Shown piece after piece: positions 15,025-53,562 of a DNA stretch of 64,000 bases (positions are counted from its first letter, which is position 1; every line of letters begins with the position of its first letter). The translations under genes were made by a program, and so were the position numbers. The stretch comes from Sphaerodactylus townsendi (lineage: Eukaryota). Location of the stretch: positions 25,854,001-25,918,000 of the forward strand of contig NC_059438.1 in the NCBI RefSeq assembly GCF_021028975.2, in the 5' to 3' direction. Under the pieces are notes generated by a model. The model made no database searches and had not been told where the DNA came from. It saw nothing but the letters and a program-made list of their open reading frames with translations.

Positions 15025-15259
15025 CACCTTCAGCACCACGAGATCAGCATGGAGGGGGAGAGCTGCTACTACCACTGCATCCTCTGCAGCTACTCGACCA
15101 AGGCCAAGCTGAACCTGCTTCAGCACGTGCGCTCCATGAAGCACCAGCGCAGCGAGAGCCTGCGGAAGCTGCAGCGCTTGCAGAAGGGCCTCCCGGAAGA
15201 AGAGGACGAGGACCTGGCGCAGATCTTCACCCTCCGGAAGTGTCCTGCGCCTGAGGCGG
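15025..15259 (+). CDS. ZFHX3: ZFHX3 internal coding exon (equivalent to human exon 4), C2H2 zinc finger
   Basis: Polypyrimidine tract + GCAG acceptor ending at 15024 and donor G|GTGAGT at 15260. Translates [78 protein letters not shown], matching remembered ZFHX3. 235 nt, phase 0 to phase 1. Confidence 0.97.
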
Positions 15260-22012: not shown

Positions 22013-23689
22013 CCGGTCGCCTTTCTTTAGCTGAGATGCACATAGAGGTGCTGCTCTTTTCCCAGATGGTCCTCAGAGCCGATGAGGCAGCAGCTCCCGA
22101 ATCTTTTTGCCAGATGTTTTCAGCCCTTCGCCTTCAGGTTTTCCTTCCCCGTCGTTCTCCGTGTGGCCCTCGATCCTTCTTGTTGGAAGTGCCTCTTCCT
22201 TTTCCACTTTCCAGCACATATCTCGTGAGGATGCAAAATCCAACAACCAGATCTCTGAGATTTGAGCGTAAAATAAAAGTAAACTCTGCTTGAAAACACT
22301 TTAGCGGGAAGCCGGGCTAATTGTAAATCAATGAGTCTTAAAATGCAGCATTGATCTCTAGTTAGAAGTTTGAAAGGGAAAGCGGTAATTACTGTGCTCC
22401 GAAGGTAGATTTTTTCTCTCCTGAGTTCTGGGCAGAAAGAAGACTCATTAAGGGCAGCGATTTGGAAGGTGGGTAATTAGTTTTAAAAGTGCTTTTCTGA
22501 TGCTATTGCTTGGTCTAGAAAGGGCTGGAGTCCTCCCAGGTTGATAGTTTGAAGCCTCAACAAGGTGTGATTTCCTTGCTGGGCTGGAGGTTGGCCGATT
22601 CTTGGGTAGCCGTCCAGGGCCCCTGCCTGTGACACAGCGTCTTCGTCAGCTGGTGTCTGTTTGTGGGGCTGATGGGGCAAAGGACGTCTTCTTCTTGGGG
22701 GGCAGGTTCTCCACTCCCTTGGAAGTGGGAGGTCCCCCATCCTGGGGCTGCTAGGAAGTGGCTGGTGGGCCTTCAGCACAGGTGGGTCCCGCCCTCGGTC
22801 TCCACCTCGAGGCCCAGAAAGAGGATCATCACCGTGCCAGGCTCCTCTGCCTTGGCAGGTGACCAAGTCACGACTCCCTTAAACAAGGGGCGTGTGTCAA
22901 GAAGGTCTTTCCTGCGGCTGGGCCCTGAGATCCCACAGGGGCCTGGAGATCGAACGGTTGAGCTGCTTCAGGCAACGCAGCAGCAGGCTCCTCGAATGCC
23001 GCAGGGCTGCTGAGGAGATGCCCTCCCTCTTGCTGTGGGGCAAGGGACTGCTTGCTGCTAGAACGAGCAGCTCCGGGCTCCAGCCCAGCAGGCTTTCCCA
23101 GGTGCCCCAGGCGCAAGGCAGCCAGGCCCAAAATGTCAGTCTTGTTGGAGTGCCGGGGAGAGCAGAAGACGTGACGTCCACCTGGGGGCATAAAAGGCCC
23201 CCGGGCCCGAGGAGCATTTGTTGTGCTGGTCTGTCTCCTTGGCCAAGGCAGGCCATTCAGGGAAGGTGGAAGCACAGGCATAGCTGGCAGGTTCAGGTAA
23301 CGGGTCTCCTCGGCAGGATGAGCTGCTGTCCTTGGAGATCAGGCCCCCCCCCGCCCCCCCCAGCTGCCCCTGAGCCTCTTCTCTGGGCTGAGCCCGGGCT
23401 CTTCCGTCACTAAGAAGGAAGTCGGGCCAAGTGGGGGAAGAGCCTGAGGGCAAGGGCAGCTCTTGGCTGGGGTGCTCTGGGTGTGACCCTTGGCTGCAGG
23501 TCTCCCGGCTGCCCTCTTTTGCCCTTGGGAGCTGTGGACTGATAGGGCCAGGCCCTCTCGTCTTGCCCCAGGCATCTTGGGACCTGCATCCTTGAGGGGC
23601 CGCCTCTCCCTCTGTCTGCTGGGCAGCTCAGTGCTCCAAGAGGGGTCTCGGTCCTTGCCAGAGATAGCTTTTGCCAGTCACGGCCTGGC

Positions 23690-32122: not shown

Positions 32123-32230
32123 AGGAGCCGGTTGAAGACACCGAAGGGCCCAGTGAGATGGCTGCCGATCCAGAGGAGCCTGTGCAAGACTCAGACAGCG
32201 CGGCCGACAAGGAGCAGAGCCAGTGGGCAG
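32123..32230 (+). CDS. ZFHX3: ZFHX3 small coding exon (equivalent to exon 5); not in the supplied ORF track in this frame
   Basis: ctctgttttccttgactttcAG acceptor and CAG|GTAGGT donor. Translates (E)EPVEDTEGPSEMAADPEEPVQDSDSAADKEQSQWA, similar to remembered human [24 protein letters not shown]. 108 nt, phase 1 to phase 1. Confidence 0.92.
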
Positions 32231-37347: not shown

Positions 37348-37478
37348 CACAAGCCACCCAGGCAGAGAAGGAGCTAGCGGAGTCCCCGGCATCCTCCAGG
37401 TGCATTGCGTGTCCAAGAGGATCGGAGTCACCCAGCACCAAATGGCCAAAGGTGTCCGAGGAGAGCAAGCCCGAGCAG
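37348..37478 (+). CDS. ZFHX3: ZFHX3 coding exon (equivalent to exon 6)
   Basis: tctcccttcttttgcAG acceptor and CAG|GTCAGG donor. Translates (A)QATQAEKELAESPASSRCIACPRGSESPSTKWPKVSEESKPEQ. 131 nt, phase 1 to phase 0. Confidence 0.93.
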
Positions 37479-38415: not shown

Positions 38416-38616
38416 ACGTATCAGTGTCCGTACTGCAAGTACAGCAACACGGACGTGAACAGGCTGCGGGTCCACGCCATGACGCAGCACTCGGTGCAGC
38501 CCCTGCTGCGATGCCCCCTCTGCCAGGACATGCTGAGCAACAAGATCCACCTGCAGCTGCACCTCGCCCACCTGCACAGCGTCTCCCCCGACTGCGTCGA
38601 GAAGCTCATTTTGACG
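38416..38616 (+). CDS. ZFHX3: ZFHX3 coding exon (equivalent to exon 7), two C2H2 zinc fingers
   Basis: tctctccctcctcAG acceptor and ACG|GTCAGT donor. Translates [67 protein letters not shown]. 201 nt, phase 0 to phase 0. Confidence 0.97.
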
Positions 38617-44220: not shown

Positions 44221-44323
44221 GTGACGTCGCCGGAGGTGATGATGCCCAGCACCATGTTCCTCCCAGCAGCCCCCCCAGACAGAGATGGGAACGCCAGTGC
44301 AGAGGAGGCGGCCCGGCAGCCCG
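44221..44323 (+). CDS. ZFHX3: ZFHX3 coding exon (equivalent to exon 8)
   Basis: cccacAG acceptor and G|GTCAGT donor. Translates [34 protein letters not shown]. 103 nt, phase 0 to phase 1. Confidence 0.95.
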
Positions 44324-45075: not shown

Positions 45076-48000
45076 AGCCCCCCGCAGACCCAGGGAAAGG
45101 CTTCCAGCCTTCGAATAACCCGGAGCCTGGGGGAGAACCGAAGGCTGTCCCGACGGACCAGGCCTCTGCCCGAGAGGACGGCGGGTTCCTCTGCTGGAAG
45201 AAAGGCTGCAGCCAAGGATTCAAGAGCTCCACTGCTCTCCAGGCACATTTCAGTGAGGCGCACACCAAGCGGCCACAGCTGCCTGTCTCTGACCGGCACG
45301 TGTACAAGTACCGCTGCAATCAGTGCAGCCTGGCCTTTAAGACCATCGAGAAGCTCCAGCTGCACTCCCAGTACCACGTGATCCGGGCAGCCACCATGTG
45401 CTGCCTTTGCCAGCGCAGCTTCCGCACTTTCCAGGCCCTCCAGAAACACCTGGAGACGAGTCACCTGGAGCTGAGTGAAGCCGACATTCAGCAGCTGTAC
45501 AGCGGGCTCCTAATCAACGGAGACCTCCTGGCCACGGGCGACCCCTCCCTGGCTGAAGAGCAGACCCTCATTGGGGAGGAAGACAAGGAAGAGGACAGCG
45601 ACTCGGAGGACAAGCAGAGCCCCACGGGGAGCGACTCCGGGTCGCTGCAGGAGGACTCTGGCGCCGAACCAAAGCGGGCTCTCCCATTCCGGAAGGGCCC
45701 AAACTTCACCATGGAGAAGTTCCTGGACCCGTCCCGTCCGTATAAGTGCACAGTCTGCAAGGAGTCCTTCACACAGAAGAACATTCTTTTGGTCCACTAC
45801 AACTCTGTGTCTCACCTGCACAAGCTGAAGCGAGCCCTCCAGGAGTCCACGACGGGCCAGCAAGAGTCCACCGCCAGCCCAGACAACAAGCCCTTCAAAT
45901 GCAACACGTGCAGCGTGGCCTACAGCCAGAGCTCCACCCTGGAGATCCACATGAGGTCCGTCTTGCACCAGACCAAAGCACGAGCGGCCAAGCTAGAAGC
46001 TGCTAGTGGTGGCAACGGAGCCGGCGGTGGCAGCAGCAGTGTCTCCTTGGGGCCCTCCACGCCCAGCCCTGTCAGCACCACCCATACCCCCACCACCGGC
46101 ACCACCCCTGCCAGCACAGCTCCTGTCCCCAACCTCCTCAGCCAGGGCTCCTGCGAGAACGTGGGGGGCCCTCCTCTTCACACACCCCTCAGCACTGGCA
46201 GCACACCAGCCTCCGCTCCCGGCCCTTCGGAGCCCAAAGAGGTCAACCGCAAGAAACTGGCTGACATGATCGCCTCCCGCCAGCAGCAGCAGGCGCACGC
46301 ATTGGCGCAGGTGCAGGCCCAAGCGCAGGCCCAGCTCCAGCAAGAGCTGCAGCAGCAGGCCGCCTTCCTGCAGTCGCAGCTCTTCAACCCGGCCCTCCTG
46401 CCGCACTTCCCGATGACCACGGAGACCCTCCTGCAGCTCCAGCAGCAGCAGCCCCAGCCCCACCTGCTCTTCCCCTTCTACATCCCCAGCGCAGAGTTCC
46501 AACTGACCCCGGAGGTGACTCTTCCCGTGACCAGCGGCACCCTGACGCTGACGGGGGCGGGGCCCAGCCTCTTGGATGACTTGAAGGTGCAGCTCCCCCA
46601 GCCCAACCACCCCCAGCCGCTGCCCCACGGCGTCCTCTTGCAGCCCAGCCAGCTGCCGGACAAGAAGGCCAAGCCCGCCACGGTCAAGGAGAAGGACGGC
46701 CAGAGGGAGCCGGAGATCTACGAGAAAGGGGACGGCACCCCCGCCTCCCAGGAGCCCCCGCCCAACCCCCCCAAGCCCAGAGACAAGCCTGACTTTGGAG
46801 CCGCGGGGCCGGCAGAGCCGATGTTACTCCCCCCGCGCATTGCGTCTGACGCACGTGGGAATGCCACGAAAGCCTTGCTGGAAAACTTTGGCTTTGAGCT
46901 GGTCATTCAGTACAATGAGAACAAACAGAAGGTGCAGAAGAAGGCGGGGAAGCCCGAGGAAGGGGGCGGGCTGGAGAAGCTGGAGTGCTGCTCCTGCGGC
47001 AAGCTCTTCTCCAACATCCTCATCCTGAAGAGCCACCAAGAGCACGTCCATCAGCACTACGTCCCCTTCAAGCAGCTGCAGAAATTTGCCCAGCAGTACC
47101 GTGAGCACTCACTCTAATAAGCTGTACCCTATCTGCGGCCTCAGGACTCCTCGGAGCCAGCTTCAGCCTCCTCCTCTCCCAAGCCTCCTGCCCCCCCACA
47201 GCAGCCTCCCACCCCGGTGGCTGTGCCTGCTGCCGCCCCACCCGTCTCCTCTCCCTCTGTTGCTCCATCTCAGCCGTCTTTGCCCCTCACGCAGCTCTCC
47301 ATGCCGATGGAGCTGCCCATCTTCTCCCCCCTCATGATGCAGACGATGCCCCTGCAGACCCTGCCCGCCCAGCTGCCGCCCCAGCTCGGCCCCGTCGACC
47401 CCTTGCCTTCAGACCTGGCTCAGCTCTACCAGCACCAGCTGAACCCAGGCCTTCTGCAGCAGCAGCAGCAGCCGCAAAGCAAGAGGCCGCGCACCCGCAT
47501 CACCGACGACCAGCTGCACGTCCTGAGGCAGTACTTCGACATCAACAACTCCCCCAGCGAGGAGCAGGTCAAGGAGATGGCGGACAAGTCGGGCCTGCCC
47601 CAGAAGGTGATCAAGCACTGGTTCCGGAACACGCTGTTCAAGGAGCGCCAGCGGAACAAGGACTCTCCCTACAACTTCAGCAACCCTCCCATCACCAGCC
47701 TGGAGGACCTGAAGGTGGACCCCCAGCCCCCCTCCCCGGAGCCCCAGAGGCACGAGTACTGGGGCAGCAAGCGCTCTTCCAGAACTCGCTTCACGGACTA
47801 CCAGCTGCGGGTCCTGCAGGATTTCTTCGATGCCAACGCCTACCCGAAGGACGACGAGTTTGAGCAGCTGTCCAACCTGCTGAACCTCCCGACCCGCGTG
47901 ATCGTGGTGTGGTTCCAGAACGCCCGCCAGAAGGCCCGGAAGAACTACGAGAACCAGGGGGAGGGCAAGGAGGGGGAGCGGCGGGAGCTCTCCAACGACC

Positions 48001-50466
48001 GGTACATCCGGACCAGCAACCTCAGCTACCAGTGCAAGAAGTGCAGCCTGGTCTTCCAGCGCATCTTCGACCTCATCAAGCACCAGAAGAAGCTGTGCTA
48101 CAAAGACGAAGACGACGAGGGGCAGGACGACAGCCAGAACGAGGACTCCATGGACGCGGCCGAGTTCCTGACCCCGACCAGTTCTTCCTGCAGCACCCCC
48201 ATGCCTTCCCAGGCATACGGCACCCCCACCTCTTCCGCCAACACAGCCTCTTCCTCCGCGGCTTTTCTGACTCAAGCGGCCACTGAGGCAGACGATTCTT
48301 CCTCCTCCTACGCTTCTAGAGCGGAAGCGACAGATGAGAAACCAAAGCAACTCGAACCTCCAAATACGCAGCAAAACCAAACTCCTGAGAAGCAAGTGCA
48401 GCCAAAGCAGGAGGGGCCTCCGCCACAGCAGCCAGAAGACCCCGGCGAGCAGCGGGCCGGCTCCACGCACCCCAGGCCTTCCCCCCCTATCCTGCAGCAG
48501 CCGGTCCAGCCTCCCGCCTGTGTCCTGTCGCAGTCGAGCCCGAGCCCCTCGCAGACCTCTCACCTGCCGCTCAAGCCCCTCCACACCTCCACGCCCCAGC
48601 AGCTGGCAAACGTGCCTCCGCAGCTCATCCCCTACCAGTGCGACCAGTGCAAATTGGCCTTCCCCTCCTTCGAGCACTGGCAGGAGCATCAGCAGCTGCA
48701 CTTTCTGAGCGCCCAGAACCAGTTCATCCACCCCCAGTTCCTGGACCGGACGCTCGACATGCCTTTCATGCTCTTTGACCCCAGCAACCCCCTGCTGGCC
48801 AGCCAGCTCCTCTCTGGGGCGCTCCCGCAGCTGCCACTGAGCTCTGCCACCTCCCCCTCCACCCCGACGTCCACCATGAGCACCCTGAAGAGGAAGCTGG
48901 AGGAGAAGGCCAGCGCGAGCCCCGGGGAAAACGACAGCAGCACTGGTGGGGAAGAGCCGCAGCGGGACAAGCGCCTCCGCACCACCATCACGCCAGAGCA
49001 GCTGGAAGTCCTCTACCAGAAGTACTTGCTGGACTCCAACCCCACCCGCAAGATGCTGGACCACATCGCCCACGAGGTGGGCTTGAAGAAGCGCGTGGTG
49101 CAGGTCTGGTTCCAGAACACTCGAGCGCGAGAGCGGAAGGGGCAGTTCAGGGCGGTGGGGCCCGCCCAAGCCCACCGGCGCTGCCCTTTTTGCCGGGCGC
49201 TCTTCAAAGCCAAAACGGCCCTCGAAGCACACATCCGGTCCCGCCACTGGCACGAAGCAAAGAGGGCCGGCTACAACCTGACCTTGTCAGCGATGCTTTT
49301 GGACTGCGACGGAGGCCTCCAAATGAAGGCCGACCTCTTTGACGGAACAGGCTTTCCGCACCTGCTCCCCAGCACCAGCGACGGCCAGGCCCTCTCGCCA
49401 GTCAGCAAGTGTCTAGAGCTCTCGCCGCACACCCTGCTGAGCCCATCGTCCATCAAAGTAGAAGGCGTGGAGGACTTTGAGAGCCCGTCCCTGTCCTCCG
49501 TCAATCTCAGCTTTGACCAAGCCAGGCTGGACAATGACGACTGCTCCTCCGTCAACACAGCCATCACGGACACCACCACGGGCGACGAGGGCACCGCCGA
49601 GAACGAGGGTGCCTCCGGGCTGGGCATGGAAGCCAAGTGCCTGCCAGGGCCGAGCGAGGGGCTGACCAAGGCTGCCATGATAGCCCTGTCTGAGTATGAG
49701 GACCGGCTGTCTTCTGGCCTGGTCAGCCCAGCTCCCAGCTTCTACAGCAAAGACTATGACAACGAGGGCATCGTGGACTACAGCGAGACCTCCAGCCTGG
49801 CAGACCCTTGCTCGCCCAGCCCTGGCGCAAGCGGCTCCACGGGCAAGTCTGCGGACGGCGGGGACCGGCCAGGGCAGAAGCGCTTCCGCACCCAGATGAC
49901 GAACCTCCAGCTGAAGGTCCTGAAGTCTTGCTTCAGCGACTACCGGACGCCCACCATGCTGGAGTGTGAGGTGCTGGGCAACGACATCGGGCTGCCCAAG
50001 AGAGTGGTCCAGGTCTGGTTCCAGAACGCCCGGGCCAAGGAGAAGAAGGCCAAGCTCAGCATGGCCAAGCATTTCGGCATCAGCCAGACGAGCTACGAGG
50101 GACCCAAAACCGAGTGCACTTTGTGTGGCGTCAAGTACAGCGCCCGCCTGTCTGTCCGTGACCACATCTTCTCCCAGCAGCACATCTCCAAAGTGAAGGA
50201 CACCATCGGGAGCCAGCTGGACAAGGAGAAAGAGTACTTCGACCCGGCCACCGTCCGCCAGCTGATGGCTCAGCAGGAGCTGGACCGGATCAAGAAGGCC
50301 AACGAGGTCCTCGGCCTGGCTGCGCAGCAGCCGGGCATGTTTGACAGCCCCCCTCTCCAGGCCCTCAACCTCCCTGCAGCCTACCCTGCCCTCCAGGGGA
50401 TCCCTCCGGTTCTGCTGCCGGGCCTCAACAGCCCTTCCCTGCCCGGCTTCACCCCTTCGAACACAG
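45076..50466 (+). CDS. ZFHX3: ZFHX3 giant coding exon (equivalent to exon 9): many C2H2 fingers and all four homeodomains; interrupted by in-frame TAA TAA at 47115-47120
   Basis: ctccacAG acceptor and CAG|GTGAGT donor; 5391 nt, phase 1 to phase 1. ORFs 44970-47117 and 47217-50672 are in the same frame. Homeodomains start near 47478 ([12 protein letters not shown]), 47766 ([12 protein letters not shown]), 48966 ([12 protein letters not shown]) and 49875 ([12 protein letters not shown]). Confidence 0.97.
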
Positions 50467-52054: not shown

Positions 52055-53562
52055 CTTTAACTTCTCCCAAGCCCAACCTGATGGGCCTGCCCAGCACAAG
52101 CGTCCCCTCGCCTGGCCTCCCCACCTCTGGATTACCAAATAAACAGCCATCTGCCTCTCTGAGCTCCCCCAGCCCAGCCCACGCGACCGCAGCCTCGGCC
52201 CCGCAGCAGCCCAGCCAGCCCACGCCTCGGAAGGACAAGGAGAGCGAGAAGGCGAAAGAGAAGGAGAAGCCCCCCAAGGGGAAGGGCGACTCCCTGCTGG
52301 CCCCCAAGGACAAAGCAGAGGCGCCTGTGCCAGCAGCCCTTCCCGCCGCACTGCCTGCCCTGGAGTACTCTGTGGAGCCCACCCAGCTGCAGGCCCTGCA
52401 GGCCGCCCTGAACTCCGACGCCACGGCTCTGCTGACGAGCCAGTTCCTTCCCTACTTCGTCCCCGGTTTCTCTCCTTATTACGCCCCTCAGATCCCCGGA
52501 GCCTTGCAGAGCAGCTACCTGCAGCCCCTGTACGGCATGGAAGGGCTGTTCCCCTACAGCCCGGCTCTGTCGCAGGCCCTGCTGGGCTTGTCCTCGGGCT
52601 CCCTGCTGCAGCACTACCAGCAATATCAACAGAGCCTGCAGGACGCGGTGCAGACGCAACAGCGGCAGAGGCAAGTGCAGCAGCAGCAGCAGCAGCAGCC
52701 GCCCCCCAAAGGAAGCCAAACCCCGGTCCCCTCAGGGACAGTGACTCCAGACAAAGACCCTGCCAAAGAACCCCCCCAGCAAAAAGAGCAGAAGGACGCA
52801 TCCCACGAGGTGTCCCCCCACCTGCCCAAACCCCAAGAAGAGCCCGAAGCAGAAGGCCACAGCGCAGGCCCCGCCCTTTGGGACCCCTACATCGTGCCCA
52901 AGGTGAAGTACAAGCTGGTCTGCCGCAAGTGCCAGGCCGACTTCGGCACCCGGGAGGCGGCCAGCGACCACCTGAAGTCCCTCTGTTGCTTTGGCCAGTC
53001 TGTGGTGAACCTGCAAGAGATGGTGCTTCATGTGCCCGCTGGCGGCAGCGGCAAGGGCGGCGGCTCATACCAGTGCGTGGCGTGCGAGAGCACGGTGTAC
53101 GGGGACGAAGCCCTCCGACAGCATCTTGAGTCTGCCCTGCACAAACATCGAACAATCCCAAGAGCAGCGAGAAACGCCAAAGAGCACCCCAGTCTATTAC
53201 CTCACTCCGCCTGCCTCCCCGACCCCAGCACCGCATCTACCTCGCAGTCTGCCGCTCACTCCAAGGACAGCCCTTCCCCCCCGCCCCCCACTGCCCCCCA
53301 CGCCTCCAGAAAGGCCTGGCCTCCCCTGCGGAAGCCGCCGCCGCCGCCGCCTCTCTCCTCATCTTCAACGGTTACCTCAAGTTCACGCAGCACCTCAGGG
53401 GTTCAGCCCTCGATGCCAACAGATGACTATTTGGAGGAGTCTGACTCGGACCTTAGCCAAAAGTCTGACGGACCGGCTAGCCTGGCGGAGAGGCCTGAGG
53501 AGCCGAGCTGCCCCAAGGACCGCGGTCTCGCTAGCGCAGAAACGGACACTTTTAGATTGTAA
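52055..53562 (+). CDS. ZFHX3: ZFHX3 terminal coding exon (equivalent to exon 10), two zinc fingers, ends DTFRL*
   Basis: Branch-point-like CCTAAT at 52023-52028 and ttgctttccAG acceptor. Translates (A)[25 protein letters not shown]...TDTFRL, with TAA at 53560-53562. Confidence 0.97.

What the first reader, a model, noticed from the sequence alone, without database searches (positions are those of the whole stretch)
47101..47200. Tandem premature stops in the giant ZFHX3 exon, upstream of all four homeodomains
Seen: the frame reads QYREH-SL-TAA-TAA (47115-47120). The expected KLYP peptide appears in the +1 frame (47119-47130), and an extra AT at 47131-47132 restores the original frame (LRPQ). 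Against the remembered conserved QYRDHYDKLYPLRPQTPEP there are about +4, +2 and +3 nt insertions within about 50 bp, next to a C-rich poly-proline tract. The other roughly 2,500 codons and all splice phases are intact. Inference: clustered small insertions in an assembly that also has short N gaps suggest a low-quality gap-filled patch. If real, it would be a null allele or a decaying copy of a normally highly constrained developmental transcription factor.
Basis: partly seen in the sequence, partly recalled or inferred. Interest (0 to 1): 0.7.

Follow-up and report, generated by a model that had tools for sequence, protein, structure and literature searches.

The report
False ZFHX3 stops from assembly error
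The two stop codons that seem to break this gecko's ZFHX3 developmental gene are in the assembled genome text, but contigs from public sequencing runs (one likely of the same species, one of a close relative) read the normal open protein there, so the stops are most likely an assembly error and the gene is likely ordinary and intact.

Summary
TAA TAA at 47115-47120 is in the window, in the frame of the giant ZFHX3 exon and upstream of all four homeodomains. It is very probably not in the animal. Of 4 runs laid (19 listed), 2 gave a contig: X2 (110 of 110 letters identical, likely the same species) and X7 (a close relative). Both leave the window at 47109 and continue in frame as Y-DKLYPLRPQ, without stops. 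No run showed the stops; X3 and X4 gave nothing, which is uninformative. 41 of 42 orthologues carry the same motif. The other 2,556 codons, six GT-AG introns and four homeodomains are intact, with no faster evolution after the stops. No second ZFHX3 copy was found. Both contigs end 46-55 letters on, in a C-rich proline tract, which suggests an unpolished consensus there. A private allele in the assembled animal is not strictly excluded. The scan noted another error-broken gene in this genome before (e1-9516502, unchecked). Verdict: artefact, interest very low.

The parts
47115..47120 (+). TAA TAA in the frame of the giant ZFHX3 exon; most likely false
   Evidence: Seen; absent from the contigs of X2 and X7, which leave the window at 47109 in an open frame
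47110..47190 (+). Disturbed tract, net +9 nt (+4, +2, +3) plus substitutions, running into the C-rich proline stretch; right edge approximate
   Evidence: Pairwise alignment to the 30-letter loose end covers 47110 to about 47146; the rest rests on protein alignment, 11 of 26 residues private to the window
47000..47109 (+). Read-supported left flank (end of a C2H2-like zinc finger and QYREH)
   Evidence: 110 of 110 letters identical in X2; one synonymous change (47030 G>A, AAG to AAA) in X7
45076..50466 (+). Giant ZFHX3 exon, 5,391 nt, AG acceptor and GT donor, phase 1-1
47478..47657 (+). Homeodomain 1, 57-58 of 60 residues identical to six orthologues
47769..47948 (+). Homeodomain 2, 57-60 of 60 identical
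48966..49145 (+). Homeodomain 3, 59-60 of 60 identical
49875..50054 (+). Homeodomain 4, 58-59 of 60 identical
15025..15259 (+). ZFHX3 coding exon, 235 nt (first one inside the window)
32123..32230 (+). ZFHX3 coding exon, 108 nt
37348..37478 (+). ZFHX3 coding exon, 131 nt
38416..38616 (+). ZFHX3 coding exon, 201 nt
44221..44323 (+). ZFHX3 coding exon, 103 nt
52055..53562 (+). Last ZFHX3 coding exon, ending in the true stop TAA 53560-53562

Best explanation
The stops are most likely a local consensus error of the assembly inside a likely intact, single-copy ZFHX3 gene: read contigs continue in an open frame exactly where the window's text turns into stops. Shown: the window and two read contigs agree up to 47109 and then part; the contigs encode the conserved peptide. 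Inferred: accurate short reads stop in the C-rich proline tract just downstream, so this stretch was probably taken from noisier sequence (such as long reads or a gap fill) and never corrected, leaving clustered 1-4 nt insertions that happen to sum to +9. Inferred: an annotation made on this text cut the protein at the false stop (P0001, 872 aa).
For:: 2 of 4 runs laid gave a contig; 2 of 2 have a loose end at 47109, agreement 1, depths 24.1 and 42.9; translated in frame DKLYPLRPQ after a TAC codon. The two loose ends differ by one synonymous letter (CTG/TTG). No contig with the stops was laid in 4 of 4 runs. Both contigs end 46 and 55 letters past 47109 (tables 7, 8), where C content rises to 0.52-0.56; 41 of 42 orthologues hold Y[DE][KQ][LMQ]YP; identity to the nearest gecko protein is 0.84 upstream, 0.39 in the tract, 0.93 downstream; window-private changes 22 of 631 upstream, 23 of 1043 downstream, 11 of 26 in the tract; up/down ratio not different from two other geckos (Fisher p 0.48 and 0.86); only ZFHX3, a ZFHX4-like and a ZFHX2-like locus found. 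PMC13066153 (passages): homozygous deletion is embryonic lethal in mice. PMC9516821 (passages): false indels and stops arise in GC-rich coding sequence.
Against: These are contigs, not raw reads: they drop rare variants and may collapse a heterozygous site (tool text). One contig per run; only 30 letters of each loose end are printed; no contig spans the tract or covers 47110-47280. X3 and X4, the other two samples of organism A that were laid, gave no contig. Whether S1 is the assembled animal is not known. The source of the error (long read, gap fill) was not observed. Homeodomain 1 has two private changes (His for Arg, Val for Ile) where 24 of 24 pattern-matching orthologues agree (18 of 42 did not match the pattern). 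A net +9 that restores the frame is also what a real compensated change would look like.
Confidence: 0.96

Rival explanations
1. A real complex mutation, private to the assembled animal or heterozygous in it, makes a null ZFHX3 allele that would be cut before all homeodomains and likely destroyed by nonsense-mediated decay.
For: The text is in the assembly and in UniRef entry P0001, though that entry is likely derived from the same text. Contigs can hide one allele of a heterozygote. A very recent null would show no downstream decay.
Against: It needs at least six separate small changes in about 36 bases and more beyond. The X2 contig, identical over 110 letters, has the open frame. Loss is lethal or harmful in mice (PMC13066153, passages).
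Confidence: 0.03
2. The window holds a decaying duplicate (for example on a sex chromosome), while a working ZFHX3 lies elsewhere.
For: The read-supported 30 letters are found nowhere in the assembly (0 matches), so the assembly might lack a copy.
Against: DNA and protein searches of the own genome find one ZFHX3 locus; the two other hits are ZFHX4-like (83 of 97 identical to P0075) and ZFHX2-like (69 of 89 to P0020). The read contig is identical to the window's left flank. 2,556 other codons are open.
Confidence: 0.007
3. The stops sit in a 21-nt micro-intron (GT at 47101 to AG at 47121) that would be spliced out in frame.
For: 47101-47121 begins GTGAG and ends AG, is 21 nt long and holds both stops.
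Against: 21 nt is far below the usual vertebrate intron minimum (own knowledge). The product would lose the conserved motif. Read contigs do not contain the stops at all. PMC9516821 (passages) describes such short introns as false annotations around indel errors.
Confidence: 0.003

Closest known systems
Vertebrate ZFHX3 (ATBF1), Zfhx family of the ZF homeobox class (PMC2211742, passages)
   Same: C2H2 fingers and four homeodomains in one giant exon; 82% identity over 1,819 aligned residues to gecko P0034.
   Different: Only the 47110-47190 tract, which read contigs do not support; two private changes in homeodomain 1, unchecked against reads.
False gene losses from false indels and premature stops in GC-rich coding sequence (PMC9516821, passages)
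   Same: Clustered small indels in a GC/C-rich coding stretch of an otherwise intact gene, contradicted by read data, with a truncated annotation as the result.
   Different: That study tested each site by read pile-ups; here only contigs of 2 runs could be seen, and the site lies in an internal exon rather than a 5' one.
UniRef P0001, labelled Sphaerodactylus townsendi ZFHX3, 872 aa
   Same: 100% identical over the 104-residue query and ends at QYREHSL, the residue before the first stop.
   Different: It is likely a product of the same assembly text, so it is no independent support; it lacks all four homeodomains.

Membership tests
ZFHX3 orthologue | Four homeodomains plus C2H2 zinc fingers | tested here: met
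   Pfam: 4 homeodomain stretches downstream, zf-C2H2 families on both sides
ZFHX3 orthologue | Best matches are ZFHX3 rather than ZFHX4 or ZFHX2, which exist separately in the genome | tested here: met
   Top hits named ZFHX3, 87-92%; paralogue-like loci on C9 and C15. No tree or synteny was computed.
Assembly consensus error (false premature stop) | Independent read data show an open frame at the site | tested here: met
   2 of 2 contigs laid, from 4 runs
Assembly consensus error (false premature stop) | Raw reads of the assembled individual do not support the assembly letters | not testable with these tools
   All 19 listed runs are kept as contigs; link of S1 to the assembly unknown
Assembly consensus error (false premature stop) | Site lies at a low-coverage, composition-biased stretch | tested here: inconclusive
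   Both contigs end 46-55 letters on, in the C-rich tract, but a filter also removes records, so missing cover proves nothing
Unitary or duplicated pseudogene | Further disabling changes and relaxed constraint downstream of the first stop | tested here: not met
   No other internal stop or frameshift in 2,559 codons; 23 of 1043 private changes downstream vs 22 of 631 upstream. Protein level only; no dN/dS.
Unitary or duplicated pseudogene | Lesion present in the species' DNA | tested here: not met
   X2 contig has the open frame
Unitary or duplicated pseudogene | A second, intact copy (for the duplicated kind) | tested here: not met
   One ZFHX3 locus found; counts from these searches are lower bounds

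The most novel reading that the evidence does not exclude
A living gecko carries a real, heterozygous, multi-indel null allele of ZFHX3 that the assembly happened to pick and the read contigs collapsed away, showing that loss of one copy of this dosage-sensitive gene is tolerated in a reptile.
Probability: 0.03. Interest if true: 0.4.

Novelty: not a real feature. Interest (0 to 1): 0.04.

Why it matters
As biology it does not matter: the gene is likely ordinary. In practice it is a clean example of a false gene loss that has reached a protein database: P0001 is an 872-residue ZFHX3 without homeodomains. Gene-loss screens that use this assembly would miscall ZFHX3, and other single-site lesions in C-rich tracts of this genome should be checked against reads before they are believed. 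If the 3% alternative were true, it would be a natural null allele of a gene whose loss kills mouse embryos.

Tried and rejected
No RNA holder was listed; this says nothing on expression. X3 and X4 gave no contig on 47000-47280, and no run covered 47110-47280; a filter drops records, so this is no evidence. No read data were obtained for the rest of the exon or its splice sites. Word shares of 0.91-0.93 in the four organism-A runs fit a loss of 2-6% from the tract plus other differences; too loose to use. Third-position GC in the tract is low (0.52 vs 0.83; 40 of 1,769 windows as low or lower) but lower still near 48255-48330, so it is inconclusive. My first motif pattern was too strict (34 of 43) and was replaced (41 of 42 with P0001 left out as the same text; the miss, P0064, lacks the segment). 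A first set of exon coordinates was off by one or more bases and was corrected. N stretches were rejected as evidence. Literature: four searches; the listing for ZFHX3/gecko/pseudogene (12 of 336 shown) held no report of ZFHX3 loss in a gecko, and the gap-closing search gave nothing usable. No supplements were read.

Full report
Observation. The window reads ...CGT GAG CAC TCA CTC TAA TAA at 47100-47120. The frame is open for 718 codons before and 1,183 after the two stops. KLYP shows in the +1 frame at 47119-47130. A gecko ZFHX3 protein (P0034) maps to seven exons in the window. Joined by coordinates they give 7,677 nt and 2,559 codons, with stops only at 47115, 47118 and the terminal 53560; 6 of 6 introns are GT-AG and in phase. 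Pfam finds 4 homeodomains, all downstream of the stops.

Identity. The best hits to the downstream 1,113 residues are named ZFHX3, 87-92% identical. The upstream 104 residues match P0001, a UniRef entry labelled Sphaerodactylus townsendi ZFHX3, at 100%; it ends at QYREHSL, the residue before the first stop. It is likely annotated from the same text and is no independent support. In the window's own genome a DNA search gives the window and one 92-base hit at 86%. A protein search gives three loci: the window, one on C9 and one on C15. The C9 locus is 83 of 97 identical to a ZFHX4, the C15 locus 69 of 89 to a ZFHX2; both frames are open. These searches give lower bounds, but no second ZFHX3 was seen.

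Read evidence. 19 runs were listed, all as contigs; four runs of organism A hold 0.91-0.93 of the words. Four runs were laid on 47000-47280. X2 (organism A) gave one contig, depth 24.1, identical to the window over 47000-47109. X7 (organism C) gave one contig, depth 42.9, with one synonymous change at 47030. Both leave the window behind 47109 with a loose end of agreement 1. In frame, the X2 loose end completes a TAC codon and reads DKLYPLRPQ with no stop; the X7 loose end differs by one synonymous letter. X3 and X4 gave no contig, and no run covered 47110-47280; the tool warns that a filter drops records, so these blanks count for nothing. That organism A is the window's species is inferred from the word share and the 110-letter identity. 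That X2 and X7 are whole-genome DNA is inferred from their size (1,551 and 1,790 million letters against a genome of 1,811 million). The read-supported 30 letters occur nowhere in the assembly.

Anatomy of the error. Against the loose end the window has net +4 before AAGCTG, two extra T's at 47130 and 47132, and an extra G near 47145. Protein alignment shows three extra residues in all, so +9 nt. The disturbance seems to run on to about 47190: in 26 aligned columns the window has 11 private residues, two other geckos 0 and 1. The contigs end 46 and 55 letters past 47109, at the start of the proline run, where C content reaches 0.52-0.56. I infer that accurate short reads thin out there and that the assembly kept an uncorrected, noisier consensus. 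That step was not observed. The N stretches cannot support it: they may be masking, and the nearest is over 20 kb away.

Constraint. 41 of 42 orthologues (P0002-P0005 and P0032-P0069, the top ZFHX3-like rows of 150 proteins held; P0001 left out) carry Y[DE][KQ][LMQ]YP; the one miss lacks the segment. Identity to the nearest gecko protein P0032 is 554 of 660 upstream, 10 of 26 in the tract and 980 of 1,050 downstream. Private changes are 22 of 631 upstream and 23 of 1,043 downstream, a ratio no different from the other two geckos (Fisher p 0.48; 0.86 with the other outgroup). The homeodomains are 57-60 of 60 identical to six orthologues. Against my reading: homeodomain 1 has His for Arg and Val for Ile where 24 of 24 pattern-matching orthologues agree; these were not checked in reads. 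A very recent null would also show no decay, so this test excludes only an old pseudogene.

Known context. Homozygous Zfhx3 deletion is embryonic lethal in mice and hemizygous loss raises preweaning mortality (PMC13066153, two passages). False indels, premature stops and false micro-introns in GC-rich coding sequence are a described class of assembly error (PMC9516821, eleven passages). ZFHX2, ZFHX3 and ZFHX4 form the Zfhx family (PMC2211742, passages). A listing for ZFHX3, gecko and pseudogene showed no report of such a loss (12 of 336 rows seen). Two earlier scan notes on this genome mention sequence errors; I did not test them and do not count them as support.

Verdict. Assembly consensus error in a likely intact ZFHX3: 0.96. 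Real private or heterozygous null: 0.03. Decaying duplicate: 0.007. Micro-intron at 47101-47121: 0.003. What stays open is the genotype of the assembled animal itself, which needs raw reads or Sanger sequence. Not a real feature; interest 0.04.

Noticed in passing
window 22426-22472: A conserved piece (13 of 15 residues identical, E 6e-10) matching an extra 16-residue stretch of gecko P0034 lies in the intron between the first two exons. With the AG at 22424-22425 and the GT at 22473 it is 47 nt, one short of keeping the frame: a decayed or frameshifting cassette exon, or another single-base error.
   Followed up: partly
window 47517-47519 and 47568-47570: Homeodomain 1 has His for Arg and Val for Ile where 24 of 24 pattern-matching orthologues agree (18 of 42 did not match the pattern); outside the disturbed tract, not checked in reads.
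   Followed up: partly
P0001 (matches window up to 47114): A public 872-aa ZFHX3 entry ends at the false stop, starts at an internal Met and holds an extra 25-residue stretch not in gecko P0034; a likely annotation artefact.
   Followed up: no
window 47101-47121: A 21-nt GTGAG...AG stretch holds both stops and could mislead gene predictors into calling a micro-intron.
   Followed up: yes
window 48255-48410: Third-position GC falls to 0.37-0.48 in a Ser/Thr/Ala-rich linker, the lowest of the exon, with the frame intact.
   Followed up: no
L004:1381-1791 (-) and L005:1381-1767 (-): The ZFHX4-like and ZFHX2-like loci read through the homologous site and its proline run without stops in this same assembly.
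   Followed up: yes
P0042 and P0044: Two parrot ZFHX3 entries lack two residues right after the same YDKLYP motif, one of them flagged low quality by its source; this spot may be error-prone in other assemblies too.
   Followed up: no
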